Shown: positions 2,901 to 64,000 of the stretch, piece after piece
Numbering within the stretch: the stretch's first letter is position 1
Layout: each line of letters begins with the position of its first letter
Origin: an uncultured Gammaproteobacteria bacterium
Lineage (GTDB): Bacteria > Patescibacteriota > Patescibacteriia > UBA1558 > S5-K13
NCBI GenBank assembly: GCA_964640635.1
Contig: CAZXFD010000002.1
Span: 26,153-90,152 of the forward strand
DNA length: 64,000 bases
Reading direction: 5' to 3'
Program-made: the position numbers and the translations under genes
Notes under the pieces: generated by a model
What the model was told of the DNA's origin: nothing
Databases searched by the model: none
Seen by the model: only the letters and a program-made list of their open reading frames with translations

Positions 2901-2902
2901 AT

Positions 2903-5531: not shown

Positions 5532-5594
5532 AATATTTTTTAAAATTATATTATCTCACTTGCATTCAATATTCGTATAATTAGCATGCATTAG

Positions 5595-5618: not shown

Positions 5619-5631
5619 TTAGCATCGCTTG

Positions 5632-43887: not shown

Positions 43888-43895
43888 GTGTTATA

Positions 43896-46800
43896 TTAGT
43901 TGTTATTTTTATTACTATTTCCGCTTGCTAAATCTCTTCTATAAACATATTCTACTGTAATCGTAAGTTGTGATGGACCTTCAGATTCCTCTCCTCCGCC
44001 TGATATTTGAGTTACTACAACATGCATTCCATCTTCACTTGTTAGATTTATATTTAAATCACCAGATTCAATATTTGCATAACCATTTGAACAATTTCCA
44101 CCAGATATTATTGCAAGCTCACTATTGTTTTTGTCTTCTAATCTGAGAGTTATACTTCCACCATCACCACACTTGTACTGTGCTTTAAGTTTCAAAATCT
44201 TAATATCCTCAGCCGGTTTCCATGAGTTTTCACCATTTCCCCAAACGCGAGTATCAACACGTGGTACATCAACATAAGCAGTGATAGTATCTCTTACCGC
44301 TGAATCAGGTAATATATAAGCAACCCCTTCAACATTTAGATCAACTGTATCTCCAGATTTTCCAACCTGCAACTTGTTTCCATTTGCTGAGATTACACCG
44401 TCAGAACTAAACATAAGTTCTGCAATACCAGATGACGTTCCACTTGCATTAAGTGTTGGCGAAATTACGACTCTTCCAAAAAAGTTTGCAGCAATATTAT
44501 TTTCACTAGCAACGACTGTCAAAGTAGTTGATGAAATATTTTGTGACATTGAAAAACTATCTAGAGCAACATTTTGTGGACTCATTAAAATATTTCCATT
44601 TCCATTTACCGACATTATTCTTGAACCATTGTTTTGTAAGACCCATAAATCATCATACTGTGCAACATTTCTATTGAAATCGTTTAGAATAAGCGCATTT
44701 GACCCTACAACTTTTCCATAATTGTCATGGCTTGTTGTAAGCTTTGTGCCACTTCCTAAATCAAAACTTAAATTACTTCCTGAATATAAATTGTAAGAAG
44801 ATGAAATAAGTGAAACTGCATTTATTGTTTCAAGATATTCAGTTGAACTTATGATATCACCAGTAAATGCTCTTGTTCTAATATCAGAATAATTTGAAGA
44901 TAAACGAGAATTCGAGATATCAATATGACTTAACAATCTTGAAGTTGAAGTTGCGCTCCAATTTTCATCATATAAATTCCAATTGATTGCAATGTCAGCA
45001 TTTCTTGTTTCAACAGAATTTAATTTCAAATCAACTAGACTTACGCTTGAAGTTGAGCCGGATGATAGATTTTCATTATCAAGTCCTGAGGTAATTTTTA
45101 TAGCAGATGATGAAGCATAATTTGGTGCAAAAGAAGATTTGTTATAATCAACTAATACGTTTGTCATTGCAAAACTAAATTTATCATATTCCGTGCTTGT
45201 TACTGATACTGCATTTATACTAACAACTTCTTGACCAATTTCGTCAGCATAGTTTGCAAGAGTAATGTTTGAAATAGAAGACTTGCTTGCTGCGACAACA
45301 GCTGGACGATTGATCTGGGTAATTCTTGTATTTTCTCTGCCTGAACCGACAATGTCAACAAATGGAATAAGTGTAACTTGTTCATTATATATTCCCGGCT
45401 TTACTGTAATGAGCCAACGATTGTTTGCACTGTTTAATTTTATCTTTGACAGAGCTTCACTGATACTTGTATAATCTCCACCTTGTTTTGCAACTACAAC
45501 TTCGTTTTGTCTATCGTTTGAAATAGCAAGAATTGAAGATGCGTCTGTTTTTGCAGTTGAAAGCAATACTTTATTTTCATCACTTCTCTCGCTAGTTACA
45601 AGTATTTCTCCAAGATTACTTATATAAATATAATTATCAACATTTGGAAGTAATGTAATTTGTTTAATTGGTTTTATAGAAATATGCGTTCCATTTACAT
45701 AAGCTTCGCCAGATGACAAGCTAGCTACAAGTGAATTTATACTCGTGGACTCCAACATAAATCCATCAATTACATAATGAGCAAGCTTGTTTCCATTTCC
45801 TGTAAAATCAATAAATGTTCCTATGTTTTCTAGAGTTTCAAACTTATCATTGGTGCTAAATAATTTTCCATTCTCACCAATATTTATATCAACGAGCATT
45901 CCTTTGAAAATATTACCACTTGATGTGATAACTCCATTTAAAGTTGCAATAGCAGATCCTGTTACATTTTGAATATTGTTGTTCATCACAATCATATCGT
46001 TGTCAGATGCAAAATTTACAATACCCTGACTCATCGAACCAATAAATTCATTTTCTGAAATTACAGGAGAAATTTTTCCAGCTGTTGTGTTTTCAATATT
46101 TATACCAACACCACTAGCTACTTCAGATATTATTCTATTATTGTTTATTACTGGGCCTGATCCTGCTATAGATACGACTGAAACATTACTTGCGGAGCCA
46201 ATTGACTTTAGAGAACAATTTTCAATTCTTGAATTATTTGCACCTATTACTGCTGGTGCGCTACTGCCAATAATTATTGTGCTAGAACTATTTTCACAAA
46301 TTACATCAACATAAGGTTTTAGAGTTATTGTTTCGCTATATTCACCTGATTTTATATTTATTACATATCTCTTTGATTCGCTATTGTCTGTAATTGATGA
46401 CATAGCAGACAAAATATTATCAAAATCTCCGCCAGTTTTTGCAACCTCTATTGTGTTTACATGATTGTTGAAATATCCAATTTGAACACTTATTGCAATT
46501 TGATCATGACCGCCCTCCATATCTTCCATTGCGATACCAATAACTCCTGCACCAAGCTTACTTGCCTTTTGAGCTTTTCCAGGTTCATTTGATGTAGTCA
46601 AATAATCACCCTTTTTAATAAGCCCATTTGATGCTGTAACATTTACCAGGCTTGCGCCCATTGTAACTATTGGCTTACCGGTTTCAGAATTTCCAGAAAT
46701 AAATGCCGGCTTCTCAGCTATTATTCCCAAAATATTTGAACTATTTGCGCGATCAGAAAGTTTTACACTATTGCCTTCATTAAGAACTACTACATCACCA

Positions 46801-49800
46801 TACTCAAAGTTTGAGTTCGTAAGCTCCATCATCTGAGCATAACCTGAGTTTGATGATTTAAACGATCCACTAGAGTATATATCACCGATTACAAGTAAAT
46901 CACCTAAAAATTCTGCATTTCCTTTGACACTCAAAGCACCATCTACAAACATATTTCCACCAATTCCAATATCACCCTTAACAAATAAATCATCGCCAGT
47001 CATATTAAACTCAGTCCATGATAATACTGGCACCTCTGATCCTACTAATACGTTATCACCAAAGTAAGATTTGCCACCAAGGTTGTCTACAAATATTGCC
47101 CAGTTGGTTGTAGATGCACTATTTAGATTTATGTATTGACCAATTTGAGTGCCAGCCTTTGAGTCACTAGCTGAGACAATATAAGATCCATAATTTACAT
47201 CTACCTCATCAGATGTTTGAAGCTCTGTGTAATTTCCAAACGCTGTTTGAGCTTTTCCGTCATACACTGTAGATAGTTTATTGTAAATTGAATATCCTGT
47301 TGCATTTTCTCCGGTTACATATATGTCATTAAAATCTCCAAATCCATAGCTATTTGCTGTCTGTAAGTTTACTTGATAAAGATTTCCCATTGAGCTAGCG
47401 TCACTTATAAAGTCCCAAACATTTGTCTTATAATCAAGTCCTTTTAATTTATTTATTTCATCTGCCAAAATTGCAACAGTATCACTGGTTTGATCTAGTG
47501 AGCTATAAACAGTAGCTAAAGAATCATTTATTAATATTTGTGTTGTGCTTGCAAAGTTATAAGAACCTATTGCATTTGAAATCATAATTGCAACTTCATC
47601 TTCTATTTCCATATTTGCAATTCTATCAGTAATTTGAGATTCAATTTGCTCTACTGTAAGAGATTTGTTTCTTCTTGAAATAAGCACATTAATACTTCCT
47701 TCACTGGCACTGAGTGATTCAAGCGCAATTCCTACTGTAGAGTCGCCTGGGTTTGCCTTCATTAAATATCCTGAACGTGAGCCAGATGTAAGTGAGTCAC
47801 CTGGATTTATATTTCCATTTTCGTTTGATACGCGACCTGGAATCTGACCAAGAAGAGCTATCATCTTGTAATTATTATTGTCACGATATTCTTCTTTTGC
47901 ATTTCCTAATAACGCTGGTTTGGTTGAAACAACTCCCATGATATTTGTATCACTTGATCTGTTACATCTTATTACAGAATTATTTCTTGAGACATCAATA
48001 CAAACTACTTCGCCAGATACCAAATCAATATTGGTTGTATAAAAATATTCTGCATAATCGGCGGATGGCGAAGATCCAGTTCCATCATAAAAATAATCCC
48101 CTTCTGCATCGACAGAAAATCTTGATGCATTTCCAGATGTACCTATATTAAATAATCTTTGATTTGCACTTGGCGAAGCTACATATACATCTAGTTTTGA
48201 TGATGGACTAGAAGTTCCAACTCCCAAATTTCCATTTACTGCTATTGCTCCTGCAGTAGTTCCAGATAAATATGCTGTTGAATTTAAATATAAATTGTCA
48301 CTATAAGTATTTAACCAATAAGCAGTTGATGTACCTAAATTATATGTGCTATCAGCACTTGTATACAAATTATTACTTGTAATATTTCCACTTACAATAA
48401 CAGACCCAGAAACAGTTCCACCAGATACCTGTAAATATCTATCATCATGGGTATGAGTGGATGTAACTGCAAGGCTAATTTTTGTATCAATATCTTCTAA
48501 TCTTAAATCGAGGGAACCAAATATTCCATAGGAAGAAGAGTTTCTTGCCTGGAGCACTTCTGTTTCTACAGTGTTTGATCCTTCTCCTGCCCAAGTATCC
48601 CCATCAAAAGCTGTCACAGTAATTCCTCTGATAATAGGTGTGGTTCCGACTCCCGCAGTCATCACAGCTTTTGCTTTCACTTGAGTTCCAATATTTGTAA
48701 ATTCCCACAAAACATTTGGCGTAACAGGTCCTTCCCAATGAACCCCATTATCAGCAGATAAATACCAATTAATGCTATTACCCGTACCAACTCCACCACT
48801 ATAGGTAAGCTTTGCACTTGTAATATTATTTGCTGAACTTACGATAACATTTGTTTCAAATATATTACTTGCTTCATAGGCGAGTTGACTCTTATAAATA
48901 TCTGCGAAAGCATAAATAGAAAAGTAATAATATCCATTATAGTATAAAGGTCTTTGATGATAACTTGAAGTAAATATTGCATTTCCCAAAATCTTTTGAG
49001 TACCTGAAATAACAAAATAATTTTCCGCATTTAAATCATATACCAAATATCCATCTGGCCTATAAGAAGAATATCCACCAAACCATAGCTGACCTCCTAT
49101 TTTTCTTATCCAATACAAAGAAGTATTCAAACTAATTTCTTGATCTACTCTATGAAATTCTTGCCAACCATTTGTTTTTGAAAGTTTTTGCCAAGAAGAA
49201 GCACTAGAAAGCCAAACAATATCTGAATCATCTGGATCCTGCCAAGAAGAATAGATAACATTTGTATAATTATACAATCCTTGAGGACCGTTTGAATAAT
49301 ACCTCTTTACAAGCGTATCTGTATCCATATTCCAAATATAAAAACCTACTGAAGTTGAAATATGTAATTCATTTCCATAGGCTTGCACATCATAATAACT
49401 ACCAGATGGTAAACCGCTATCAGGACTGTTGTCGTAATCTGTAAATGTTCCACTTACTACATTAAACACCTGCATATAACTTCCCGATGGAAATAAATAC
49501 ACCTTACCATTGTAATACTGCATCACGTTTCCAAGCTGATTACCAATAGTATTTGATTTTAAGCCGTTTGCTGTTGTATATGTTGTAATAGTATTTGCAT
49601 CTACATCTATCTTAACAAGTCCAGGACCAGCTGAATAAAACCCTGCATAAATATCATTTCTATCATAATCATAAGCTATACTCGTAAAATTGACCTGAGC
49701 AAGAGAAGGTGTAGAGGTTGCGGTCCATTGACCGACAATGGCCTCTGTATCAAGATTAAGCACTTTTATACCATAACCATAAGTAGCTACATATAATTTA

Positions 49801-55800: not shown

Positions 55801-58800
55801 GTCGTCGTAGCTAAAGTTGATATCCCAGATACATTTAGATTTCCAGAGACTATTTGATTTCCTGATGTTGTAGCATTGCCTGATACTACTAATCCTGATG
55901 TTATTCTAAGAGATCCTACGATTGTTGAACTTGCACCACTTGGACTTACTGTCAAAAATCCATTCGCATTTGTATTTATATTTGTATAATTTCCTGCACT
56001 ATTTTCTAATGTCAATTGTGTTGTTGTTGTAACCACATGAAGACCTGCATTTGGAGTAGTTGTTCCTATTCCTACATTGCCAATATTATAATAAATACTT
56101 GCTCCGTTTGTAGTCCATTGAGATCCTATGTAAGGTGATCCATTTACATATAATGCTGTTGCATTTACAACTCCATTTACGTCAAGTGTAAATCTAGGAG
56201 TAGTTGTTCCTATTCCTACATTGCCATCACTATTTACTACAAATATTCCTTGATTTGTAGTTGTTGCAATTTGTAATAGATTTTCAGTTGAGCTAGAGCT
56301 TACTACTGATAATTTGTAATTTGGTGTAGTTGTGCCAATGCCTATAAAACCTGTTGATCCAGCAGTATCTGCATATAACACATCTGTAACAGAAGTTCCG
56401 TTATATCCTCTTATTCTAAAATCCGCATTAGGAGAATATGCTCCCCAAACACCAGACGACAAATATCCCATTCTAGATCCACCCGTATCACTAACATATC
56501 CATTTGCTCCAACTCTTATAGATCCATTAATCTCTAATGCTAGCGCTGGATTGGCGATACCAATTCCAACTCTATTATTTACACTATCAATAACTAAGGT
56601 ATTTGAATCAAAATTAACATCTCCACCTATCGTAGTTGTTACCGTTCCATTTATTACTACGGCTCCCGCGATAGTTGTGCTAACTAAATTCGTAAATCCC
56701 AATACTACTTGATTACCAGTTGTTGTTGCATTTCCATTAACTTGTAATGTTCCATTTATTGTAGTCGATGCAAGTATTGTATTTCCTAAAACCATTAATG
56801 CTCCTGAGTTATAAATTCCAGTAGATGTGACAACTCCACCTATTGCAATTCCTGTATTTGATAATGTTAATAAATTTGAATTTCCGCTCACTGCGATATT
56901 TAATCCATTAAACAATAAACCGTTGATTGTTGTTGTAACTCCTCCATCAACAATCAAATTTGAAATAGTGGTTGTTGCAAAATCACTTGTTCCATCTACT
57001 ATTAAATTTCCTGTCATTGTATCACCTGAGACATTTACAAATAATGAATCTGCGGAACTCGTTGTATGATATCTATTATCTAAACTTGTTGAAGAAATTG
57101 TTGATATATGACCATAGTTATCAAGAGCTATACTTTGAATTACTGTGCCACCCAAATTTGTCTGTCCTAGTGCAGAAGAAACCGCGTGATTTATTGCAAT
57201 TGATCCTGCGCCATTTACTATTGAAATAAGTGACCCCTGAGTAAGCGTTCCTATAGTAGGGGCTCCCGTTCCATCTCCAATTAATAATTCACCATTTGCA
57301 AACACTCTTGTTGCATTTATTTCACCCGTTCCATTTCCTAATAATATTCCGCCAGACGTAAATGTTGTTGTTCCTGTTCCACCGTATGGAACCCCTATAA
57401 TATTTCCGCCCCAAGTAGCGTTTGTAATTGTTCCAGTAACTGACAAACTACCATGAATATTTGTGGTGCCATATAAGTCAATCGTTGGAGCTGTAAGTGC
57501 TATTCGTAAACCAGCACGACTTAAGATTTGTGAAGATCCATCAAGAGCTGATAAAGTAATACTTCCCCCAGAAGAATTTGTTTGTATAGATATTCCCTTA
57601 CCATCCAAATCATTTGGAACTAAAAGACTTATACTCTCTTTTGAATTCATTGAAAGAGTGCTACTAGAGTTTAATGATATTGTATGTTGAGATTCCAATC
57701 CCAAAGCTCCAAGATTTCCAGATGTTATAACTTTCAAAGATTGATCCGGACTTGTTGTGAAATTCATAACATTAGAATTGTCTTGAATAACCTTTTTTCC
57801 ATTTACATATAAAGAGCTTGGTCCTAAATGTAATTCATCAGTGTAAATATCTTTAAACTGATGTGTTTCATCACCCAACATTATAAGAGACACATTTGTT
57901 GTAACACTTCCTGTCATGTCAGGTATTACATTTCTTGTAAGGGTTGTTGTTGCAAGTGTCGTGTATCCCGTCACTACCAAACTTTGTGTTCCAGTTGCAT
58001 TTGCAAAAACTAGATTATTAATCGTAGATGAGGTAAATAATCCAGTTCCAATAACCGTTCCATTGATTGTTAAATTTCCATTAATTGTTGTAGTTGCTAA
58101 ATTGGTAAATCCTACTACTGCAAGATTTCCAGTTGTTGTAGCATTTGTAACTTGTAAATTTTGTAAATTACTTGTTCCAGTTACAAATAAATTACTTGCC
58201 AAGGTTGTTGTTCCACCATTTGGGGTAACGCGTAAATCGCCGAATGAATTTGTTCCAAATGTTACATATTTACTTTCGCTATACCCTAGCGTAAATTGTG
58301 TTGTTGAGTTTGATACAACATGAAGGGTTGAAGATGGTGCTTCTATACCTATTCCAATTCTGCCACCTACAATTGGCGTTGGGTTTGTTGCATCATGATT
58401 ATATATTCCTGTTCCATATAATACATTTCCAATATTTAATTGTCTCTCTGCGCTATTTGCTGTTCCACGACCAATAGCAATACTATCTGAATATCCTCCT
58501 GTAGAAGTGTATCTGCCTATAAGAATTGATGTTCCGTAATTTTGGGTGTTATCAACTCCATCATTATTACCTGCATTTGTTCCTATAAAAATAGAGTCGC
58601 TTGCATTTATTGCTCGAGAACCTGCATAATAACCCAGAAAGTTTGAGTTAGATGCATTTGTTGCTTCAGCACCAGCAGCCTGTCCAAAGAAGTTTGAGTT
58701 AGATGCATTTGTTGCTTCAGCACCAGCAGCCTGTCCAAAGAAGTTTGAGTTAGATGCATACTCTGCACGAGCACCAGCAGCCTGTCCAAAGAAGTTTGAG

Positions 58801-61800
58801 TTAGATGCATTTGTTGATCTATCACCAGAATATTGTCCGAAGAAGTTTGAATCAGCTGCATTTTCTGCACGAGCACCTGAATATTGCCCAAGAAAATTTG
58901 AGTTAGATACACTTGATGCACCAAAGCCAGCATCACTACCAACAAATAAATTTGTGCCGTCTGCTGATATATTTACTATTGTATTTCCTAGCAATATCTT
59001 TCCACTAGCTGAGGTTGCTACAAGATCTCCACTTGAGTTTGTTGAAAGAGTTGAATAATTTGAACTGTCATAACCTAATGTTAATTGTGTTGTTGAGGTT
59101 ACAATATGTAGTCCTGCATTTGGAGTAGTTGTTCCTATTCCTACATTTCCAGAATTATAATAAATACTATTTCCAAATGTTGTCCATTGAGACCCTGTAT
59201 ACTGAGAACCGTTTACGTATAAATCTTTTGCATTTACAATACCATTTACATCAAGTGTAAATGCTGGAGTAGTTGTTCCTATACCAATTCTTCCATTTAA
59301 TACATTTGCAAATAATAAACTTGTTCCAACTAAGAAATTTCCAGTAACTGTAGTAGATGATAATGTTGTTGTTGCAAGCGTACTTAATCCGGTAACTGTT
59401 AAATTAGAAATTGAGGTGCTAGCTAAAGTTGAGGTTCCAAATACATTTAAATTATTTCCCACTATCAAATTATTTGTTACATAACTATTTGTTGAAGTAA
59501 CGACACCAGTAATATTTAATCCACTATTTGAAAGCGTCAATAAATTTGCATTTCCAGATAAACCAATACTACTTCCTGATATTTGAATATTTCCCAATGT
59601 GCTTGTTGACACAACAGAAAGAGATCCTACTGTTTCAATATTTCCACTAATTGCAGAAATTGTTGCATTTGCTCCTATGATTAAGTCAGAGGACGCATAT
59701 AATTTTCCTGTTATATATGTATTAAGCCCCGATGGTGCAATTGTAAGATTTCCAGTACTGCTTACAGTAAACGAAGAATAATTTGATACATCATAGCTAA
59801 GTCTTAGTTGTTCTGTCGTACCACCAACATTAAGTCTTGCAAGGGGTGTTGCAACGTTTACACCAACATTTCCATTTGAATCAACTTTTATTCCTTCATT
59901 GCCACCATCACCAGAAAGCCAATAATTTCCAAGTCTAATATTTTGAGTTGCTATATGAGTTCCAAAATCATCACCAGTTGAAGTTGCAGTTCCACAATCT
60001 CCCGATTTTGCCAAAATATCTCCATCTGGACTAACATACAAACAACGATTTCCTAATCCTTCACCAGCAAGATCTGTTGTTCTAATAGTTCCAGCAACAT
60101 TTAATGCTTGAACCAATGAACTTGTTCCAATACCAACCTTATGATTTACTGAATCAACATAAAGCGTATTATTATCAACTACAAATAACGTCCTCGTTAT
60201 AGTAGCATTTCCACCTATGTATGCTGAATTAGTTACAGACAATTGTGAAATTGTTGTACTAGCTAAATTTGTAAATCCTAATACTACAAAGTTGTTTGAT
60301 ATTGTTGAACTTGCAACTGTAAGTTCGTTTAAGTTTGTTGACCCTGAAATATTTAAACTTGTTCCCGAAATAGCTGCAAGATTTGATGTACTTGATACCG
60401 TAAGACTTGATAGTGCAAGTGTTGTTCCTGTTGCGCTTGTATAAGTTAATGATTGAAGTGTTGTATTTCCTTGAATTTGTAAATCACCAGAAGCAATAAT
60501 ATTTCCTGCTAAATTAATTGTTCCTGTTGCAACTATTCCACTAGTAACCGCTAATTGTCCGTTTACTGTTGTGCTTGCAAAAGTAGCAATTCCATTTAAT
60601 AGGATAGAATAATTATTTGCTAATATAGAATTATTACCAATTTCTAAATTATTATTAAATGTCGATACTCCATTAACTAATAAATTTGAAATTGTTGTAG
60701 ATGCCAATGTGCTTGTTCCATTTACCGTTAGGTTTCCAGAAATTGTTCCACCACCTAATCCTAAATACATTGAACTAGCTGTAGCTACTGTTAAGTAATC
60801 TGCATCATTTGTCCATTGTCTAATTGTTGATGTTGCAAAATTTGAAACTGATAAGCTTGTTGAGACGGCAGACCAATATGGATCTGATTCTGTATATGAT
60901 GTTAAGTATCCTGCGAGTGAATGGTCACCCCAACTATATGCATCGTCCCAAAAAGATGAAGATGCTGAAACTATATTATATGACTCATTCCATTGTAATG
61001 AATTACCACCTATTACTGATATAAGATTTGATACATACAGATTTGTCCCTGTTGCAGATGTGAAGTTTAGTGTTGTAAGTGTAGTAGATGATAATGTTGT
61101 AGTAGCTAAATTCGTAATTCCAAGTGAGGTAAGTGATGAAGTAACTGTTGCGGTTCCTGCAACTAATTCTGTTGATGTTGTATGCTCTGATTCTAAATTT
61201 GTAAATCTTCCGATTAATGCTGTGATGGTGTTTTCTATTGTTGCATTTACTGCTCGTAGTATAGAAGCAAATAAATTTGTTGAAGTTACGCTTATTCCTG
61301 ATGCATTTCTAAATGTTAAAGTATCTATATTTAAATTTGTTCCTGTTGCTGAATTGAATGTAAGGTTTGTAATTGATGTAGATGCAATTGTAATATTTCC
61401 TAAATTTAGACCTCCTGTGATTGCAAGATTGTTTAATGTTGTTGTGCCAAATACATTCAAGTTTCCTGATACAACTTGATCTCCTGTTGTTGTTGTATTA
61501 CCTGATACTATTAAACTTGAAATAGTTGTGCTAGCTAAATTTGTAACTCCTAATACTACAAAGTTGTTTGATATTGTTGAACTTGCAACTGTAAGTTCGT
61601 TTAAGTTTGTTGACCCTGAAATATTTAAACTTGTTCCCGAAATAGCTGCAAGATTTGATGTACTTGATACCGTAAGACTTGATAGTGCAAGTGTTGTTCC
61701 TGTTGCGCTTGTATAAGTTAATGATTGAAGTGTTGTATTTCCTTGAATTTGTAAATCACCAGAAGCAATAATATTTCCTGCTAAATTAATTGTTCCTGTT

Positions 61801-63977
61801 GCAACTATTCCACTAGTAACCGCTAATTGTCCGTTTACTGTTGTGCTTGCAAAAGTAGCAATTCCATTTAATAGGATAGAATAATTATTTGCTAATATAG
61901 AATTATTACCAATTTCTAAATTATTATTAAATGTCGATACTCCATTAACTAATAAATTTGAAATTGTTGTAGATGCCAATGTGCTTGTTCCATTTACCGT
62001 TAGGTTTCCAGAAATTGTTCCACCACCTAATCCTAAATACATTGAACTAGCTGTAGCTACTGTTAAGTAATCTGCATCATTTGTCCATTGTCTAATTGTT
62101 GATGTTGCAAAATTTGAAACTGATAAGCTTGTTGAGACGGCAGACCAATATGGATCTGATTCTGTATATGATGTTAAGTATCCTGCGAGTGAATGGTCAC
62201 CCCAACTATATGCATCGTCCCAAAAAGATGAAGATGCTGAAACTATATTATATGACTCATTCCATTGTAATGAATTACCACCTATTACTGATATAAGATT
62301 TGATACATACAGATTTGTCCCTGTTGCAGATGTGAAGTTTAAGTCAGAAATAGTGGTTGAAGCAAATGTTAAATTCCCAAGAGTTGTATTTCCATTAATA
62401 ACTAAATTATTTAAAGTTGTTGTTCCACTGACTGTCAAGTCCGTAATTGTTGTTGTTGCAAGAGTGCTCGTTCCAGTTACGGTAAAATCTCCATCAACAA
62501 AAGATGAAGAAGCAACTCCAGTTCCAACTCCAACAGGATCTCCATTCCAATAAAGAATTCCGTTTATATTATAAAGTGTGTTTGCTGTAACAAGTGGCGT
62601 TGAAGATGCAATTGTAATTCCATTTTGCATCACACTAATTTCTGATGCAATTATATTTGCAAAAGTTGAAGTGCCACTTACTGTCAAATCATTACTTATG
62701 CTTGTTGTAGAAAGATTCGTTATTCCAGAGACTGCCAAATTTCCAGAAATATTTTGGTTGCCAGAAATATTTATAGCATTTGCAAATGTAACATTTCCAT
62801 TAAATATTACATCGTCTTCAAATCTAGCACGAGCTGTTACTATAACCCCTGCATTTGTATCGCTTGATACTGTAAGCGCATCTGAAACAGATAAGTTTTC
62901 TACTGCTAAAAAACGCGAAACGCTCAAATCCCGCATTAGAACTTGAGCTGTATATGTATTTGTATTAGTCCATGTATTATTTGACTCCAGTGACGCACCA
63001 TTTTGAATAATAGTTGTAGAACCACCACCTGACCCACTAGGTCCCATTGGACCCGCCGGACCAGTAGCACCAATATCTCCTTTTGCTCCTTTATCTCCTT
63101 TGGTGCCATTATTACCTGCAACTCCTCTTGGTCCCATTGGACCAGCAATACTAATTCCCTCAGATTTAACAACATTTTGAATAATTGTATCTCCATAACT
63201 ATTACTATAATAATTTTGAATAATAGGAGCATCTGGATTATATGAATAAAAATTTTGAGATTTTTCTAAATCTGCAAGATCAGTTATTGAATTTGCAAAG
63301 TTTTTCCAAAAAGCTAAATTTGCATTCTCACTTCTTTTTGTAAGTTGTATAGAAAATCTATAAGGACTCTGTCTATAAAAATTAATTTTATCTAAAATAT
63401 TTAAAACTATATTTGTCTGACTAAGCTTTACACCATTTTTAGAAAAAACTGATTCTTTCATTCCCAATACTCGAGATTTATTTTGATCGTTTTCTAGATT
63501 AGAGCTATAAGATAAAAATTTATTTTGTAATTTATTAACATTAACTTTTCCATTTTCAAGAACATTAAAATCTTCTGAAATTTTTACAAGATTATTTTTA
63601 TAAGAATCAATTTGATAATCAGATGAATTAAAAACAAAATATACTTGCTCTGGAGTTTCAATATATTTTGATTTTAGAGATTCATTAAACAAACCAACTT
63701 TCTCAAATAAATTTTCTAAATTATTTTTATAAGAATAAAAAAGTTTGTCTACTGCAACCTGAGTAGATTCTTTTATTGAGTTTTCATTTTTGGAGAAACT
63801 TGCAATTGCAAGGGGAGAAAAAGTTTTTGTGATAATAAGAATTGCAACAAGTGCAACAGAAAAATTTAGAGATCTAATAAATTGATCTAGGGAATAATTT
63901 TTATTAAATTTAAAAGTTGGTAATTTTTTATCTTGAGAGATTTTTGCAAAACTAATATTTCTAAAATTATTACCCAA
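43896..63977 (-). CDS. Giant (~6,693 aa or more) cell-surface fibre/adhesin-like protein: N-terminal signal anchor, collagen-like Gly-X-Y segment, very long Thr/Ser/Gly/Asn-rich beta-helical repeat array with tail-fibre-like motifs, a beta-propeller-like region, and C-terminal pectin-lyase-fold (PbH1) beta-helix domains
   Basis: A single uninterrupted 20,082-nt ORF. The annotated start is a TTG at 63977, but the frame stays open to the window edge, so the gene may begin beyond 64000. Also: TM LNFSVALVAILIITKTFSPLAIASF; GPMGPRGVAGNNGTKGDKGAKGDIGATGPAGPMGPSG; recurring NVGIGTTTPNAGLHIV...LTLGYDSSNYS modules; C-terminal GGD[FY]..I..A......[ST]....R[WY][LV]I.[IV]K.G.Y.E.[IV]TL and NNNRII...G.GI.I.N pectate-lyase-like turns. 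Confidence 0.85.
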   Translation of the reverse strand: MGNNFRNISFAKISQDKKLPTFKFNKNYSLDQFIRSLNFSVALVAILIITKTFSPLAIASFSKNENSIKESTQVAVDKLFYSYKNNLENLFEKVGLFNESLKSKYIETPEQVYFVFNSSDYQIDSYKNNLVKISEDFNVLENGKVNVNKLQNKFLSYSSNLENDQNKSRVLGMKESVFSKNGVKLSQTNIVLNILDKINFYRQSPYRFSIQLTKRSENANLAFWKNFANSITDLADLEKSQNFYSYNPDAPIIQNYYSNSYGDTIIQNVVKSEGISIAGPMGPRGVAGNNGTKGDKGAKGDIGATGPAGPMGPSGSGGGSTTIIQNGASLESNNTWTNTNTYTAQVLMRDLSVSRFLAVENLSVSDALTVSSDTNAGVIVTARARFEDDVIFNGNVTFANAINISGNQNISGNLAVSGITNLSTTSISNDLTVSGTSTFANIIASEISVMQNGITIASSTPLVTANTLYNINGILYWNGDPVGVGTGVASSSFVDGDFTVTGTSTLATTTITDLTVSGTTTLNNLVINGNTTLGNLTFASTTISDLNFTSATGTNLYVSNLISVIGGNSLQWNESYNIVSASSSFWDDAYSWGDHSLAGYLTSYTESDPYWSAVSTSLSVSNFATSTIRQWTNDADYLTVATASSMYLGLGGGTISGNLTVNGTSTLASTTISNLLVNGVSTFNNNLEIGNNSILANNYSILLNGIATFASTTVNGQLAVTSGIVATGTINLAGNIIASGDLQIQGNTTLQSLTYTSATGTTLALSSLTVSSTSNLAAISGTSLNISGSTNLNELTVASSTISNNFVVLGVTNLASTTISSLIVSGNTTTTGDQVVSGNLNVFGTTTLNNLAITGGLNLGNITIASTSITNLTFNSATGTNLNIDTLTFRNASGISVTSTNLFASILRAVNATIENTITALIGRFTNLESEHTTSTELVAGTATVTSSLTSLGITNLATTTLSSTTLTTLNFTSATGTNLYVSNLISVIGGNSLQWNESYNIVSASSSFWDDAYSWGDHSLAGYLTSYTESDPYWSAVSTSLSVSNFATSTIRQWTNDADYLTVATASSMYLGLGGGTISGNLTVNGTSTLASTTISNLLVNGVSTFNNNLEIGNNSILANNYSILLNGIATFASTTVNGQLAVTSGIVATGTINLAGNIIASGDLQIQGNTTLQSLTYTSATGTTLALSSLTVSSTSNLAAISGTSLNISGSTNLNELTVASSTISNNFVVLGFTNLASTTISQLSVTNSAYIGGNATITRTLFVVDNNTLYVDSVNHKVGIGTSSLVQALNVAGTIRTTDLAGEGLGNRCLYVSPDGDILAKSGDCGTATSTGDDFGTHIATQNIRLGNYWLSGDGGNEGIKVDSNGNVGVNVATPLARLNVGGTTEQLRLSYDVSNYSSFTVSSTGNLTIAPSGLNTYITGKLYASSDLIIGANATISAISGNIETVGSLSVVSTSTLGNIQISGSSIGLSGNANLLTLSNSGLNITGVVTSTNSYVTNNLIVGNNLNVFGTSTLASTSISNLTVTGLSTLATTTLSSTTVTGNFLVGTSLLFANVLNGRIGIGTTTPAFTLDVNGIVNAKDLYVNGSQYTGSQWTTFGNSIYYNSGNVGIGTTTPNAGLHIVTSTTQLTLGYDSSNYSTLSTNSSGDLVATSASGKILLGNTIVNISADGTNLFVGSDAGFGASSVSNSNFLGQYSGARAENAADSNFFGQYSGDRSTNASNSNFFGQAAGARAEYASNSNFFGQAAGAEATNASNSNFFGQAAGAEATNASNSNFLGYYAGSRAINASDSIFIGTNAGNNDGVDNTQNYGTSILIGRYTSTGGYSDSIAIGRGTANSAERQLNIGNVLYGTGIYNHDATNPTPIVGGRIGIGIEAPSSTLHVVSNSTTQFTLGYSESKYVTFGTNSFGDLRVTPNGGTTTLASNLFVTGTSNLQNLQVTNATTTGNLAVVGFTNLATTTINGNLTINGTVIGTGLFTSSTINNLVFANATGTQSLVVTGYTTLATTTLTRNVIPDMTGSVTTNVSLIMLGDETHQFKDIYTDELHLGPSSLYVNGKKVIQDNSNVMNFTTSPDQSLKVITSGNLGALGLESQHTISLNSSSTLSMNSKESISLLVPNDLDGKGISIQTNSSGGSITLSALDGSSQILSRAGLRIALTAPTIDLYGTTNIHGSLSVTGTITNATWGGNIIGVPYGGTGTTTFTSGGILLGNGTGEINATRVFANGELLIGDGTGAPTIGTLTQGSLISIVNGAGSIAINHAVSSALGQTNLGGTVIQSIALDNYGHISTISSTSLDNRYHTTSSADSLFVNVSGDTMTGNLIVDGTSDFATTTISNLIVDGGVTTTINGLLFNGLNIAVSGNSNLLTLSNTGIAIGGVVTSTGIYNSGALMVLGNTILASTTINGTLQVNGNATTTGNQVVLGFTNLVSTTIAGAVVINGTVTTTIGGDVNFDSNTLVIDSVNNRVGIGIANPALALEINGSIRVGANGYVSDTGGSRMGYLSSGVWGAYSPNADFRIRGYNGTSVTDVLYADTAGSTGFIGIGTTTPNYKLSVVSSSSTENLLQIATTTNQGIFVVNSDGNVGIGTTTPRFTLDVNGVVNATALYVNGSPYIGSQWTTNGASIYYNIGNVGIGTTTPNAGLHVVTTTTQLTLENSAGNYTNINTNANGFLTVSPSGASSTIVGSLRITSGLVVSGNATTSGNQIVSGNLNVSGISTLATTTIASLSLSGSLNDSTNSAGSDGMVLRSTGTSTQWVSTSTIVGGNALVNLNGLTSSAQNFATGTSGNIFNIVSSGSTHTFNMPIASSVNTGQLQNSDWSMFNNKLSGAGVANYLLRYVTATTTATSSVYDNGTIIGLGSRATITVSSGDITTLGTLSASGTLAVTGNATMHSDLRVVGTSTLGNVQITGNNIGLVGNADLLTLANSGLQIDGIVTSTQMYVSGNAVVAGTLFVSDGSSTTPSIAFIGDPDTGFYRYSDNTISITAGSNEAMRISDTQISMFNPVSFEAVGNVAIANDLIFTNSSASYIKSESALYVQTNSAYLDLNLVLSAANLGDVIVDDTLIVTGTSTLATTTINGTLVVNGNATTTGNQAVSGNLTVGGTINGSFISTSSTFTNLTFGSATGTNLYVSGNTSLASTSVAGTFDATGIISAFGGNSMNWNSAYGWGNHADAGYLLGSTASTIYLSLSTWFSTTTLPSNIVNSSLTGVGVLNSGSINTGFGTILTNNTITGSVINGTTGINTGADSGTQRIDASGNLVNIGTISSGLINGQTISSSANFTGTLTVVGTSTLATSTISQLAVTNGLNVSGFSILANLQVTNATTTGNLAVFGFTNLASTTITGSFILNGVDIGNGYFSSSTISNLAFTNATGTQSLVILGNTTLATTTVNGNAIFNGNTTTVVNNFLVGANDLFVNHSNGYVGIGTTTPSSALHILNANAQLKLGYDSLNYTNFQNSGGGLDIHTYAPAVNHPYTRFSFNSNDGLDIGSFSDINEGGFYEVNGDGVIAGFDYDDNRFVYGGRALTINLGDIGIGTSTPTSKLTVSGDTLLYGNATTTGNLVVSGFTKLASTTITGNLSITGNSTITGNQFISNNLQINNNLKVAAVLSVGDFITLDGQGGNITGASALVGNPYVGELYIGGDFYGDDLGLYDVSNDFMIAGKNYNTGIYQYGGAFSSSDGLFINNGNVGIGTSTPTSKLTVSGDALLYGNATTTGSHYINNLITESLNVSGVSMLDSLTVSNTVTTTNLIVTSTSTLGNMLIAGNNIGLSGNANLLTLLTSGLNISGVVTSTNSNVTNNLVVGNNLNVLGVSTLASTTVTGAFAVNTNQLYINPLNGYVGIGTTSPQYALDVYSSDNYLGQLRANHGIFGDRYTSNYVNVGYDILGGEIGMSWNVNDELIVGVNSAQTAYKFGGYSDDAGISVNINSGYIGIGTTTPLSRLTVSGDALLYGNGTTTGSYYIGSALNVSGLSTLANLQVTNATTTGNLAVLGITNLASTTITGSFILNGVDIGNGYFSSSTISNLAFTNATGTNSLVMLGNTTLASTTIAGSFSVNTNQLYVNPLNGYVGIGTVDPGNTLHVSSSDSIAARFTSFDSSRGGLYLGNNNSYSTDEFGLYDAGGDMPLVVYEASPDSMNDVIHYNNISVNPSTGNVGIGTTTPAFTLDVNGIVNATDLYVNGSKYIGSQWTSNGNSIYYNTGNVGIGTTTPNAGLHIVTSTTQLTLGYDSSNYSTLATDNYGNLVISPSGNMITFAPAAVDSVNIVGDIQGTGKNIIGLYSSTGDQVLAEINITDQTYTYGNGALLIDEANSNSLFSNNLIIGSGATITSTGIATFATTTVTGLIASNNGVSISSSTPIITTNTLYNLGGNLYWNGSAVGSGAESDPIWMAASSSYALLSGANFSGDISVGGRATITASSGDITTVGKISASGTLAVSGNVNLFSDLTVAGTSTFGNVQIAGNNIGLASNANLLTLSNNSISISGDLSVGGNATFTGNILPSADNIYTLGSDTNRWKDLYLGPNSINIGVAGNYALLGYSTTSNYLSFNPSGNGISQFVMTDTGYLGIGTTTPSQALTLNGNIQFDGDGNIMADTVVNFNTSINVGGTVTSSNGFAVGNTTVVNALGNISGDRVDEVVSGRSTYNSLNDRFNAITANYSSILSNASLFSDSFQTTTNVNTSNTTAAYNSMIGTIQNNTDAWTKIDINYGTGDNIRSISGTIVYGNKLYVATYGYGIKVLNLDTEAIVGQWTATSTPSLAQVNFTSIAYDYDRNDIYAGFYSAGPGLVKIDVDANTITTYTTANGLKSNTIGNQLGNVMQYYNGKVYLFPSGSYMQVFNVVSGTFTDYDNSPDSGLPSGSYYDVQAYGNELHISTSVGFYIWNMDTDTLVKRYYSNGPQGLYNYTNVIYSSWQDPDDSDIVWLSSASSWQKLSKTNGWQEFHRVDQEISLNTSLYWIRKIGGQLWFGGYSSYRPDGYLVYDLNAENYFVISGTQKILGNAIFTSSYHQRPLYYNGYYYFSIYAFADIYKSQLAYEASNIFETNVIVSSANNITSAKLTYSGGVGTGNSINWYLSADNGVHWEGPVTPNVLWEFTNIGTQVKAKAVMTAGVGTTPIIRGITVTAFDGDTWAGEGSNTVETEVLQARNSSSYGIFGSLDLRLEDIDTKISLAVTSTHTHDDRYLQVSGGTVSGSVIVSGNITSNNLYTSADSTYNLGTSTAYWLNTYSDNLYLNSTAYLSGTTAGAIAVNGNLGVGTSSPSSKLDVYVASPSANQRLFNIGTSGNASRFSVDAEGDYFYDGTGSSPSADYAEYFYTTNIDLVSGEVVCIDVSRNNSVIRCNRSSDTNIMGVVSTKPALLGNAKEEYRDNNNYKMIALLGQIPGRVSNENGNINPGDSLTSGSRSGYLMKANPGDSTVGIALESLSASEGSINVLISRRNKSLTVEQIESQITDRIANMEIEDEVAIMISNAIGSYNFASTTQILINDSLATVYSSLDQTSDTVAILADEINKLKGLDYKTNVWDFISDASSMGNLYQVNLQTANSYGFGDFNDIYVTGENATGYSIYNKLSTVYDGKAQTAFGNYTELQTSDEVDVNYGSYIVSASDSKAGTQIGQYINLNSASTTNWAIFVDNLGGKSYFGDNVLVGSEVPVLSWTEFNMTGDDLFVKGDIGIGGNMFVDGALSVKGNAEFLGDLLVIGDIYSSGSFKSSNSGYAQMMELTNSNFEYGDVVVLNEGNSVKLSDRANSSNILGIIAEKPAFISGNSETGKPIVTMGASLVNVTASNGLIKKGDYLTTSNEPGKAQKASKLGAGVIGIAMEDMEGGHDQIAISVQIGYFNNHVNTIEVAKTGGDFDNILSAMSSITDNSESKRYVINIKSGEYSETITLKPYVDVICENSSSTIIIGSSAPAVIGANNSRIENCSLKSIGSASNVSVVSIAGSGPVINNNRIISEVASGVGINIENTTAGKISPVISENEFIGSMSQGIVNFASDNDMIVMNNNIQNVTGSAIATLNGVITSSGNIFKGMLVDINIGENGKLFSTNDKFETLENIGTFIDFTGNGNKLAHYVIDGFMLESTSINSLVASLSSGEAYVNGTHISIKPIKQITLLPNVDNYIYISNLGEILVTSERSDENKVLLSTAKTDASSILAISNDRQNEVVVAKQGGDYTSISEALSKIKLNSANNRWLITVKPGIYNEQVTLIPFVDIVGSGRENTRITQINRPAVVAASKSSISNITLANYADEIGQEVVSINAVSVTSTEYDKFSFAMTNVLVDYNKSSFAPNYASSSAIKITSGLDNENLSSGSTSSVSLVDLKLNSVETRNADIAINWNLYDENWSATSTSRLLSHIDISNSRLSSNYSDIRTRAFTGDIISSTEYLETINAVSLISSSYNLYSGSNLSFDLGSGTKLTTSHDNYGKVVGSNALILNDFNRNVAQYDDLWVLQNNGSRIMSVNGNGNILMSPQNVALDSFSMSQNISSTTLTVVASENNIAANFFGRVVISPTLNASGTSSGIAELMFSSDGVISANGNKLQVGKSGDTVDLNVEGVAYILPDSAVRDTITAYVDVPRVDTRVWGNGENSWKPAEDIKILKLKAQYKCGDGGSITLRLEDKNNSELAIISGGNCSNGYANIESGDLNINLTSEDGMHVVVTQISGGGEESEGPSQLTITVEYVYRRDLASGNSNKNNN
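58590..58900. repeat. 51-bp tandem repeats (~6 units) inside the giant gene encoding the 17-aa repeat NSNFFGQAAGAEATNAS
   Basis: Units start at 58641, 58692 and 58743; adjacent units are nearly identical. The protein reads DSNFLGQYSGARAENAA / DSNFFGQYSGDRSTNAS / NSNFFGQAAGARAEYAS / NSNFFGQAAGAEATNAS x2 / NSNFLGYYAGSRAINAS. Confidence 0.8.
60217..62760. repeat. Tandem direct duplication of ~1,272 bp (two ~424-aa protein repeats) inside the giant gene, near-identical
   Basis: The identical antisense pseudo-ORFs 60824-61024 and 62096-62296, and 60259 vs 61531, are all offset by exactly 1272 nt. There is one visible substitution (VNPNTT vs VTPNTT). Confidence 0.8.
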
Positions 63978-64000
63978 GTCTGAAAATAATTTTTGTGACA

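What the first reader, a model, noticed from the sequence alone, without database searches (positions are those of the whole stretch)
43896..63977. 20-kb single gene for a ~6,700-aa collagen-anchored, tail-fibre-like beta-helical surface fibre ending in pectin-lyase-fold domains
One ORF fills a third of the window. Reading N to C it has five parts. (1) A positively charged N-terminus plus a hydrophobic helix, which looks like a signal anchor. (2) About 40 residues of perfect Gly-X-Y collagen triplets at roughly 63020-63150, suggesting a trimerisation stalk. (3) Thousands of residues of short T/S/G/N/L/I-rich beta-strand repeats (TGNLTVSGTSTLASTTISNL...), punctuated more than ten times by the module NVGIGTTTP.AgLHv...LtLGYdssNYs. 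I recognise this motif from phage L-shaped tail fibres and from chlorovirus and Bacteroidetes fibre proteins. (4) A region with YYNGKVY and WQKLSKTNGW-type strands that looks like a beta-propeller. (5) At least two C-terminal right-handed parallel beta-helix (pectate-lyase / tailspike-like) domains. Collagen stalk, tail-fibre modules and a tailspike-like beta-helix together resemble a cellular version of a phage receptor-binding fibre. For a small-genome, possibly episymbiotic bacterium this is a plausible host-attachment or host-surface-glycan-degrading organelle. Spending about 20 kb of a presumably ~1 Mb genome on one protein is remarkable. The TTG start at 63977 lies in an ORF that stays open to the window edge, so the gene may be longer still.
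Basis: partly seen in the sequence, partly recalled or inferred. Interest (0 to 1): 0.85.

Follow-up and report, generated by a model that had tools for sequence, protein, structure and literature searches.

The report
Giant phage-tail-fibre-like surface fibre gene
One uninterrupted gene of about 20.7 kb in an ultrasmall (CPR/Patescibacteria, Komeilibacteria-like) bacterium encodes a 6,890-residue membrane-anchored fibre built from the same trimeric modules as phage tail fibres and Bdellovibrio prey-recognition fibres, which makes it a strong candidate for how such bacteria find and hold their host cells.

Summary
Window 43896-63998 (minus strand) is one stop-free frame of 6,700 codons. It is the C-terminal 6,700 residues of a 6,890-aa NCBI protein (P0011), which matches residue for residue, so the true ATG lies 570 nt beyond the window and TTG 63977 is not the start.
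- a single membrane-anchor helix;
- 14 Gly-X-Y triplets;
- a ~4,300-aa mosaic rod with 19 xVGIGTTTPxxxLxV modules, whose profile hits only Bdellovibrio MAT fibre crystal structures in the PDB (E 1e-12);

The pectinesterase catalytic motifs are absent.

Neighbouring genes are housekeeping, not phage. Collinear intact relatives exist in Komeilibacteria and other Patescibacteria.

Best reading: a trimeric host-recognition fibre, a giant membrane-anchored variant of the MAT / phage tail-fibre kind. The function is inferred, not shown.

The parts
43896..64000 (-). Giant fibre gene. The window holds codons 191-6890 plus the stop (TAA 43896-43898). The true ATG is about 570 nt beyond the window edge.
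   Evidence: the window translation is identical to P0011 residues 191-6890. P0011 lies on the same 305,536-bp NCBI contig as the window's IleRS.
63867..63998 (-). End of the cytoplasmic N-terminal region (window residues 1-44, K/R-rich). The two HTH_17-like repeats lie just outside the window (P0011 residues ~16-61 and 76-121).
   Evidence: Pfam HTH_17 E 3.5e-4, below the curated cut-off; more than 160 CPR proteins share the repeat at 60-88% identity, several with precomputed PF12728.
63795..63866 (-). Single transmembrane anchor helix (residues 45-68, FSVALVAILIITKTFSPLAIASF).
   Evidence: Kyte-Doolittle scan. Too far from the true N-terminus to be a cleaved signal peptide (inference).
63144..63794 (-). 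Juxtamembrane K/N/E/S-rich spacer (residues 69-285). No family match.
   Evidence: P0163 covers 96% of the 475-residue N-terminal query (HTH repeats, anchor helix and this spacer) at 41% identity.
63018..63143 (-). Collagen-like Gly-X-Y run, 14 triplets (residues 286-327).
   Evidence: regex. Pfam Collagen E 4e-5, 23.7 bits against a cut-off of 27.2; collagen-like tail-fibre PHROGs and Scl/Lcl models.
50079..63017 (-). Mosaic rod (residues 328-4640). T/S/G/N-rich beta-strand repeats punctuated by 18 of the 19 MAT/S74-type capping-loop modules xVGIGTTTPxxxLxV; the 19th lies at residue 5258, just before the first G2 domain.
   Evidence: the module profile hits 8OND/8OJN/8OML/8ON4/8OL4 (E 1e-12 to 5e-3) and weakly MyRF 7DC3; tail-fibre PHROGs; two phage tail-fibre tblastn hits.
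60276..61069 (-). Copy 1 of a perfect 794-nt direct repeat (residues ~977-1241).
   Evidence: 0 mismatches over 794 nt at an offset of 1272 nt; the flanks diverge gradually.
61548..62341 (-). Copy 2 of the perfect 794-nt direct repeat (residues ~553-817).
58581..58937 (-). Tandem 51-nt repeats (6 offset register positions of a 102-nt reference copy, i.e. about 7 units) encoding 17-aa units NSNFFGQAAGAEATNAS.
   Evidence: (family D4). Structural class not tested.
48558..49871 (-). Seven-bladed beta-propeller followed by a beta-sandwich (residues ~4710-5147).
47619..48101 (-). Peptidase-G2 / phi29 gp12-type intramolecular chaperone domain, copy 1, with an intact S-A-D-Y-A-E-Y-F motif (D at residue 5314).
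   Evidence: profile E 1.4e-4 to 6QZ9 and 5.9e-4 to 3GQH, aligned at DFAEYFES..
46449..46886 (-). G2-type domain, copy 2. The motif is degenerate (GYAQMM). This is the first element of the conserved C-terminal cassette.
   Evidence: Pfam XM1_gp53_minor_capsid E 7e-5. alignment; hundreds of relatives of this stretch.
45804..46460 (-). Right-handed parallel beta-helix 1 (residues ~5847-6065).
44703..45761 (-). Small beta domain plus right-handed beta-helix 2 (residues ~6080-6432).
   Evidence: Pfam Pectinesterase positions 2-84 of 298 at residues 6167-6249 (E 6e-12); the CE8 catalytic motifs are absent.
43932..44300 (-). C-terminal tip domain (residues 6567-6689), a beta-sandwich with two invariant cysteines.
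   Evidence: pLDDT 80-91; invariant C66/C92; no PDB sequence relative.
43852..43888 (-). Perfect 14-bp inverted repeat just after the stop codon (terminator-like hairpin). It precedes the next gene's ATG at 43836.
   Evidence: sequence read directly. No T-run follows, so terminator function is not shown.

Best explanation
The gene encodes a homotrimeric cell-surface fibre of a Komeilibacteria-like CPR bacterium.

Topology. About 234 N-terminal residues, including two HTH_17-like repeats, stay in the cytoplasm. One helix anchors the chain in the membrane. Some 6,600 residues project outward.

Assembly. Three chains would be brought into register by the 14-triplet collagen segment and by interdigitated MAT/S74-type beta-helix modules, each closed by a VGIGTTTPxxxL capping loop. 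One or both phi29-gp12-type chaperone domains would assist. Scaling from Bd2133 (142 Angstrom for 370 aa), the rod would be on the order of 150-250 nm long.

Distal end. It carries, in order, a 7-bladed propeller with a beta-sandwich, two tailspike-like right-handed beta-helices, and a small disulfide-bonded tip domain.

Proposed role. These distal domains bind surface polysaccharide or protein on a host or partner cell, so the fibre works like a phage receptor-binding fibre or a Bdellovibrio MAT adhesin.

Shown here: gene integrity, architecture, folds, sequence kinship to MAT fibres, CPR taxonomy, non-phage context.

Inferred: trimer state, length, surface exposure, host binding, any enzymatic or self-cleaving activity.
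For: - One intact ORF, identical to an NCBI 6,890-aa product.
- The orthologue in Ca. Komeilibacteria S5_K13 is collinear and stop-free over 3,881 aa at 70-96% identity, with whole-module indels in the rod.
- The module profile hits only Bdellovibrio MAT fibre structures (8OND E 1.2e-12, 8OJN 3e-9, 8OML, 8ON4, 8OL4). MAT proteins are surface-located trimeric prey-binding fibres that share this motif with T5 pb1, K1F endosialidase and MyRF (PMC10769870).
- Collagen run.
- G2 chaperone domain related to phi29 gp12.
- Propeller and beta-helices resembling phage tailspikes and depolymerases.
- Family members at 32-35% identity in other Patescibacteria keep the C-terminal cassette at the end of ORFs of more than 2,000 to at least 4,100 aa. 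One of them (L005) has a collagen-like run inside the same ORF; in L006 the collagen run lies in a separate upstream ORF in another frame.
- Partial proteins P0192 and P0259 show HTH, membrane helix, collagen, then capping loop.
- Neighbours are IleRS, RecO, TGT, L25, acetate kinase and glycosyltransferases. No phage genes.
- Very large surface proteins are already proposed as host-attachment factors in CPR predators and epibionts (PMC8080830; PMC13059738).
Against: - No expression, localisation or binding data exist.
- Trimerisation was not modelled.
- Both structure models are of moderate confidence (pLDDT 62-65) and rest on shallow alignments.
- The C-terminal cassette is the most conserved part between species (88-96%), which is unlike a fast-evolving receptor-binding tip.
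- The CE8 catalytic motifs are absent, so depolymerase activity has no support.
- The collagen run is short and below Pfam's cut-off.
- The host of this organism is unknown. An episymbiotic lifestyle is assumed from the lineage only.
- A perfect 794-nt internal repeat leaves the exact length unverified.
Confidence: 0.7

Rival explanations
1. It is a structural envelope component: a self-protective coat, spacer or matrix fibre of the bacterium's own surface, not a host-recognition device.
For: The gene sits in a region rich in glycosyltransferases and a Wzy/O-antigen-ligase-like gene. It lies next to other surface proteins (DUF2341/LamG, DUF11). The distal cassette is highly conserved. The composition is low-charge and T/S/N/G-rich, typical of structural fibres.
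Against: The closest sequence relatives with known function are prey-binding adhesins. Propeller and tailspike-type domains at the distal end are ligand-binding folds. The module shuffling between close species is typical of adhesin and receptor-binding proteins.
Confidence: 0.12
2. It is a pro-protein. The first G2-type domain cuts the chain at Ser/Ala-Asp5314, as phi29 gp12 does. This frees or loosely holds a ~1,387-aa tailspike-like module that acts as a secreted polysaccharide-binding or -degrading factor, or is discarded as a giant assembly chaperone. The propeller would then be the mature fibre tip.
For: The profile match to the gp12 autocleaving domain aligns exactly at its cleavage motif DFAEYFES. 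Copy 1 keeps D-Y-A-E-Y-F while copy 2 has lost D and E. The cassette after it is a conserved unit across the family. The cassette is more conserved than the propeller.
Against: In gp12 the domain is C-terminal to the beta-helix, whereas here it precedes the helices. Pfam Peptidase_G2 itself was not hit. The match is modest (E 1e-4). No cleavage data exist.
Confidence: 0.1
3. It is a phage or tailocin gene (a prophage tail fibre) rather than a cellular gene.
For: Tail-fibre PHROG hits, two phage tail-fibre tblastn hits, and tailspike-like folds.
Against: No capsid, terminase, portal, tail or integrase genes appear anywhere in 64 kb. The neighbours are housekeeping genes. The protein has a cytoplasmic domain and a membrane anchor that is widespread in CPR cellular proteins. 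The downstream gene sizes and order (about 1,100-1,300 aa, then about 970 aa) recur in a sister species.
Confidence: 0.03
4. The great length is an assembly artefact, or the gene is a decaying pseudogene.
For: A perfect 794-nt internal repeat and many 40-90% repeats. Relatives in the databases are mostly fragments.
Against: 6,700 codons without a stop have P about 1e-240. An independent assembly of a related species gives a collinear stop-free orthologue. With unique flanks, U1-R-U2-R-U3 is the only consistent path through the repeat; only its copy number is uncertain (inference).
Confidence: 0.05

Closest known systems
Bdellovibrio bacteriovorus MAT (mosaic adhesive trimer) fibres, e.g. Bd2133 (8OND), Bd3182 (8OJN), Bd2439 (8OL4); Caulton et al. 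2024, PMC10769870
   Same: Both share the repeated capping-loop module (GNVGIGTxxPxxxLxV), aligned without gaps and significant at sequence level. Both are cellular rather than viral. Both are long rods with swappable distal domains. Both belong to bacteria that live off other bacteria.
   Different: MATs are about 1,000 aa, with a signal peptide and a conserved ~130-aa beta-rich N-domain. This protein is 6,890 aa, with twin cytoplasmic HTH repeats, a membrane helix and a collagen segment. Its distal set (propeller, G2 domains, two beta-helices, Cys tip) is not among the described MAT tips. No S74 SDxxxK motif is present.
Phage S74-type tail fibres and spikes (T5 L-shaped tail fibre pb1 4UW8; K1F endosialidase 3GW6) and MyRF
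   Same: The same intertwined beta-helix with capping loops, according to the MAT paper. There is a weak Pfam End_tail_spike hit at residues 4424-4535 and a marginal MyRF hit.
   Different: No Peptidase_S74 chaperone-protease domain. Not part of a virion. About six times longer.
Bacillus phage phi29 pre-neck appendage gp12 (3GQ7/3GQH/6QZ9; peptidase family G2)
   Different: The domain order is reversed: here the G2 domains precede the helices. There are two copies, one degenerate. Pfam Peptidase_G2 was not matched. Cleavage is untested.
Giant surface proteins of CPR predators and epibionts (Vampirococcus lugosii, up to 4,163 aa, PMC8080830; Absconditicoccaceae, PMC13059738)
   Same: Very large, membrane-associated, proposed host-recognition proteins in small-genome CPR bacteria.
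   Different: Those are described with WD40/TPR/PKD/FN3/integrin-type domains. A phage-tail-fibre/MAT rod, collagen, G2 and tailspike cassette is not described there. No sequence comparison was run.
CE8 pectin methylesterases (1XG2, 1QJV)
   Different: The catalytic QDT, DFIFG and GRPW motifs are absent from both helices. This is fold kinship only.

Membership tests
MAT (mosaic adhesive trimer) superfamily | Repeated capping-loop motif (V-G-G/N-small-x-x-P-x-x-x-L) on beta-helix modules | tested here: met
   19 copies. The profile hits five MAT crystal-structure sequences, best E 1.2e-12, with ungapped alignment of GNVGIGTxxPxxxLxV.
MAT (mosaic adhesive trimer) superfamily | Signal peptide followed by the conserved ~130-aa beta-rich N-terminal domain | not testable with these tools
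   No MAT N-domain sequence was available, because the PDB entries cover only the tips. The architecture here differs visibly: 234 cytoplasmic residues, a membrane helix, a spacer, then collagen.
MAT (mosaic adhesive trimer) superfamily | Intertwined homotrimer | not testable with these tools
   No multimer prediction was available. Gly-X-Y triplets and a G2 chaperone domain are consistent with a trimer.
Peptidase S74 tail-fibre chaperone-protease | C-terminal S74 domain with SDxxxK | tested here: not met
   No SD...K anywhere. No Pfam Peptidase_S74 hit in any tile. The relative P0015 does have one.
Peptidase G2 (phi29 gp12 autochaperone) | Sequence similarity to the gp12 C-terminal domain, including the D-F-A-E-Y-F cleavage motif | tested here: met
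   Profile A4 against the PDB: 6QZ9 E 1.4e-4 and 3GQH E 5.9e-4, aligned at the motif. DYAEYF is at residue 5314. Copy 2 is degenerate.
Peptidase G2 (phi29 gp12 autochaperone) | Pfam PF11962 match, and a position C-terminal to the beta-helix | tested here: not met
   No Peptidase_G2 hit at E<0.1. The domains lie N-terminal to both beta-helices.
Peptidase G2 (phi29 gp12 autochaperone) | Autocatalytic cleavage | not testable with these tools
   Needs protein chemistry.
CE8 pectin methylesterase | Right-handed parallel beta-helix fold | tested here: met
CE8 pectin methylesterase | Catalytic motifs QDT, DFIFG, GRPW, and a full-length Pfam match | tested here: not met
   Regex finds none after residue 5600. 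The Pfam match covers model positions 2-84 of 298 only.
Bacterial/phage collagen-like proteins | Uninterrupted Gly-X-Y repeats | tested here: inconclusive
   14 triplets are present, but Pfam Collagen scores 23.7 bits, below the 27.2 cut-off. NCBIfam Scl/Lcl scores are far below their cut-offs.
Prophage tail fibre | Location within a phage gene cluster | tested here: not met
   All annotated neighbours across 64 kb are cellular housekeeping or envelope genes.
WD40-like 7-bladed beta-propeller | Seven four-stranded blades | tested here: met

The most novel reading that the evidence does not exclude
The fibre is also a transmembrane signalling device. Engagement of the ~200-nm phage-like ectodomain with a host surface would be relayed to the twin cytoplasmic HTH_17 repeats, either by force or by regulated proteolysis. 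The topology resembles ToxR/CadC, and the logic resembles MyRF, which shares the same beta-helix motif. Host contact would thereby reprogram transcription in a bacterium that has few conventional regulators. The same HTH-plus-membrane-helix module on more than 160 other CPR proteins would then define a CPR-wide class of membrane-tethered regulators.
Probability: 0.07. Interest if true: 0.9.

Novelty: new variant of a known kind. Interest (0 to 1): 0.62.

Why it matters
How ultrasmall CPR/Patescibacteria identify and bind their hosts is largely unknown. The abstract of PMC12206443 (listed) says so, and work so far centres on type IV pili.

This locus gives a concrete, conserved candidate family: membrane-anchored fibres several thousand residues long, built from the modules that phages and Bdellovibrio use for cell recognition. 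It has separable domains (propeller, beta-helix cassette, tip) that can be expressed and screened against candidate host envelopes.

It also extends the MAT / S74 tail-fibre module to a third lifestyle and a deep-branching lineage. In addition, it exposes a highly conserved cytoplasmic HTH-plus-membrane-helix anchor that appears to be undescribed.

Tried and rejected
- Single-sequence PDB searches of the whole protein found nothing. Only profiles of internal repeats or of homologues did.
- The word-indexed homologue search with the C-terminal 860 aa returned nothing. This was an index limitation, not orphan status: the exhaustive search found 3,482 relatives, including the protein itself.
- Looking up the contig by exact protein failed for IleRS and for P0011, so the upstream DNA and promoter were not seen.
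A 4-sequence alignment worked.
- A literature search for the motif as a text string gave only microcin and AMP papers.
- A profile of the HTH repeat against the PDB gave only spurious ankyrin matches.
- A profile of the tip domain against the PDB gave nothing.
- Rejected as best explanations, though each keeps a small residual probability under the rivals: pectinesterase enzyme (catalytic motifs absent), prophage tail fibre (context), pseudogene or artefact (ORF statistics and orthologue).
- A diversity-generating retroelement target was considered. No Pfam reverse-transcriptase match was found among the roughly 30 window ORFs scanned, but small ORFs and template repeats were not searched.
Full report
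OBSERVATION. The minus strand of window 43896-63998 is a single frame of 6,700 codons ending in one TAA. With the local base composition a stop is expected every ~13 codons, so the chance of such a run is about 1e-240. An exhaustive HMMER search returned a 6,890-aa protein, P0011. Its residues 191-6890 are identical to the window translation. It lies on the same 305,536-bp NCBI contig as the window's IleRS, TGT and acetate kinase. The gene is therefore 6,890 codons (about 20.7 kb), and its ATG lies 570 nt beyond the window. I number residues from the first in-frame window codon; add 190 for full-length numbering.

CONTEXT AND ORGANISM. G+C is 27-36%. The neighbours are cellular: IleRS, RecO, TGT, L25, a PfkB kinase, acetate kinase, PFOR subunits, GatB, ArgRS, PyrB/PyrI, several glycosyltransferases and a Wzy-like protein. 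There are also other surface proteins (DUF2341 with three LamG domains directly downstream, and DUF11). No phage genes and no tRNAs were found. Named relatives of pieces of the protein come from Candidatus Portnoybacteria, Komeilibacteria and 'Patescibacteria group'. The closest genome locus (86% identity over the last 542 aa) is Candidatus Komeilibacteria bacterium S5_K13. The CPR/Patescibacteria attribution is thus supported. The genome size and episymbiotic lifestyle are assumed from the lineage.

ANATOMY, N to C.
(i) Outside the window, P0011 begins with two ~48-aa repeats (ISLxEAxxxCSYTQEYLSLRARQGKLxSVKIGRNWMTxxEWVEEY). They score as Pfam HTH_17 below the cut-off (E 3.5e-4). More than 160 proteins from many CPR lineages carry the same repeat at 60-88% identity, several with a precomputed PF12728 assignment. 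The repeat is N-terminal and is followed by one hydrophobic helix in all seven relatives whose sequences I read.
(ii) Residues 45-68 are the only strongly hydrophobic segment near the N-terminus. Because about 234 residues precede it, it is a membrane anchor, not a cleavable signal peptide (inference).
(iii) A 217-residue polar spacer follows.
(iv) Fourteen uninterrupted Gly-X-Y triplets occupy residues 286-327 (nt 63018-63143).
(v) Residues ~328-4640 form a mosaic rod that is 46% T+S+G+N overall, with almost no charge or cysteine. It consists of modules repeated at 40-50% identity. There are 21 STLAxTTI-type strands and 19 xVGIGTTTPxxxLxV motifs, against 0.1 and 0.16 expected. Classical tail-fibre motifs are also present: VSGDTMTGNL, YGGTGTTT and HTHDDRYLQVSGGTVSG (their tail-fibre association is from my own knowledge).
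(vi) Residues ~4710-5147 form a propeller plus a beta-sandwich.
(vii) Two G2-type domains lie at ~5300-5460 and ~5705-5850.
(viii) Two right-handed beta-helices lie at ~5847-6065 and ~6165-6432.
(ix) A ~130-aa low-confidence stretch is followed by a ~120-aa tip domain with two invariant cysteines.
A perfect 14-bp inverted repeat follows the stop codon.

WHAT THE ROD IS. Pfam, NCBIfam and single-sequence PDB searches are almost blank. PHROGs give weak tail-fibre hits. A tblastn of one module against 50,697 phage records gives only two weak hits, both annotated as tail fibre. The decisive result is a profile built from the 19 internal modules (A3). In the whole PDB it matches only the Bdellovibrio MAT fibre structures: 8OND/Bd2133 E 1.2e-12 with three stretches, 8OJN 3e-9, 8OML 1e-4, 8ON4 8e-4 and 8OL4 5e-3. 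MyRF matches marginally. The alignments are ungapped across GNVGIGTxxPxxxLxV. Caulton et al. 2024 (PMC10769870) describe exactly this element as the 'capping loop' of the intertwined trimeric beta-helix. They report it as shared with S74 phage proteins (T5 L-shaped tail fibre 4UW8, K1F endosialidase 3GW6) and MyRF. They show that MAT proteins sit on the predator's surface and that one binds prey glycans.

DISTAL DOMAINS.
G2 domains. A profile of the domain and its homologues (A4) hits phi29 pre-neck appendage gp12 (6QZ9 E 1.4e-4; 3GQH E 5.9e-4). The alignment falls at the very start of the autocleaved chaperone fragment, DFAEYFES. The phi29 head-fibre C-terminus is also hit. Copy 1 keeps S-A-D-Y-A-E-Y-F at residues 5312-5319. 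Copy 2 reads G-Y-A-Q-M-M.
Tip. The tip domain has no PDB sequence relative and could not be fold-searched on its own.

FAMILY AND EVOLUTION. The exhaustive search found 3,482 relatives of the last 1,200 aa. Most of the listed hits match the G2-type domain or the beta-helix cap. Five long proteins of 1,487 to 6,890 aa share the whole cassette; three are distant (33-35% identity), from Komeilibacteria, a Patescibacteria bin and an unnamed ENA metagenome record. Six genome loci were retrieved. They carry the cassette at the 3' end of open frames of at least 3,881, at least 2,127, at least 4,129, 3,477 and 3,219 aa. One (L005) has a collagen-like run inside the same frame; in L006 the run lies in a separate upstream frame, which may be a frameshift or a second gene. 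L007 has FG-GAP-like repeats inserted. Against the S5_K13 orthologue the alignment is collinear. The cassette is 88-96% identical, the propeller about 70%, and some rod segments only 28-54%, with whole-module indels. Partial proteins P0192 and P0259 show the same N-terminal order of HTH, helix, spacer, collagen, then capping loop. This is therefore a recurrent CPR architecture, not a one-off.

MECHANISM (inferred). The elements that are trimeric wherever they have been studied are the collagen triplets, the MAT/S74 helices and the G2 chaperone domains. Phage tailspike beta-helices, the closest structural matches to the two helices here, are also trimers (my own knowledge). Together these point to a homotrimer anchored by three membrane helices. 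Bd2133 measures 142 Angstrom for 370 residues. Scaling from that, the rod would be about 165 nm and the whole ectodomain up to about 250 nm, comparable with the size of a CPR cell (my own knowledge). The distal propeller, helices and tip are ligand-binding folds. I rate a host or partner recognition and attachment fibre at 0.70.

RIVALS. The alternatives are a self-directed envelope fibre (0.12), a G2-cleaved pro-protein that releases the cassette (0.10), an assembly artefact or pseudogene (0.05), and a prophage gene (0.03). The high conservation of the cassette is the main observation that the simple 'variable receptor-binding tip' picture does not explain. It fits either a conserved target, an assembly-chaperone role, or the cleavage model.

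ASSEMBLY CAVEAT. The segments 60276-61069 and 61548-62341 are identical over 794 nt. Their flanks are homologous but diverged, as expected for a real tandem duplication with a homogenised core. The order of the unique segments is forced, but the number of 1272-nt units is not verifiable without long reads.

NOVELTY. Very large surface proteins in CPR have been reported and proposed as host-attachment factors (PMC8080830, PMC13059738). MAT fibres and phage tail fibres are known kinds. What appears new, within the limits of the held literature, is the following. First, the sequence-level link of CPR fibres to the MAT/S74 module. Second, the scale (6,890 aa). Third, the combination of collagen, MAT rod, propeller, two G2 domains, two tailspike-type helices and a Cys tip. 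Fourth, the twin-HTH plus membrane-helix anchor shared with many CPR proteins. I class it as a new variant of a known kind, with interest 0.62.

Noticed in passing
just beyond window 64000 (P0011 residues 16-121); relatives P0164-P0282: A ~48-aa HTH_17-like repeat (YISLxEAxxYCxYSQEYLSLRARQGKLKxVKIGRNWVTKKEW) is 60-88% identical in more than 160 proteins from many CPR lineages. In the seven relatives whose sequences were read it is N-terminal and followed by one membrane helix. Most of the listed relatives are 260-330 aa, and the four of that size that were read share a conserved C-terminal SFSDEVKVE...YLYIxVP domain. It looks like a generic CPR membrane-anchor or regulator module of unknown function.
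   Followed up: partly
window 60276-61069 and 61548-62341: A perfect 794-nt direct repeat inside the giant gene, with a 1272-nt period. It is either a recent duplication or gene conversion, or a point where the copy number could be mis-assembled.
   Followed up: partly
window 58581-58937: Tandem 51-nt repeats (about seven units) encode 17-aa NSNFFGQAAGAEATNAS units. They are reminiscent of YadA-head-type adhesin repeats. The resemblance comes from memory and was not tested.
   Followed up: no
window 40654-43836 (-): The gene directly downstream is a 1,060-aa membrane-anchored protein with DUF2341, three LamG/ConA-like domains and a weak fibrillar-collagen C-terminal (COLFI) hit. The sister-species locus L002 has a 1,287-aa ORF and then a 972-aa ORF in the same positions, which suggests synteny. 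Homology was not tested.
   Followed up: partly
window 16728-22493 (-): A 1,921-aa ORF with no Pfam match and no obvious membrane segment at its N-terminus. It is rich in ~35-40-aa acidic helical repeats (IKEEFNISE...) and is embedded among glycosyltransferase and Wzy-like genes. It is present as a singleton cluster in NCBI.
   Followed up: no
window 33350-35362 (-): A 670-aa protein with a long basic N-terminus, one membrane helix and a DUF11 domain. It is a third anchored surface protein within 30 kb.
   Followed up: no
window 1455-3823 (-): Two aspartate/ornithine carbamoyltransferase paralogues flank a PyrI regulatory-chain gene. This is unusual for a lineage said to lack nucleotide biosynthesis.
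   Followed up: no
window 43852-43888: A perfect 14-bp inverted repeat (CCAACCCTGGGTTG ... CAACCCAGGGTTGG) lies between the giant gene's stop and the next gene's start. It is terminator-like but has no T-run.
   Followed up: no
L003 (CAZWVD010000055.1) and L007 (CAYRHT010000002.1): These records are titled 'uncultured Gammaproteobacteria' but have 33-35% G+C and carry this CPR-type fibre cassette at 57-88% identity. They are probably mislabelled bins. L007's fibre also contains FG-GAP-like repeats and a masked run of N.
   Followed up: no
L001 (JGI Ga0377186_006667) 1382-5746: A 1,454-aa relative (P0001) has a signal-peptide-like N-terminus, then the same propeller module at 57% identity, then capping-loop modules. 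It is flanked by cupredoxin-domain genes. This shows the propeller is a portable module placed near the N-terminus in a shorter fibre.
   Followed up: partly
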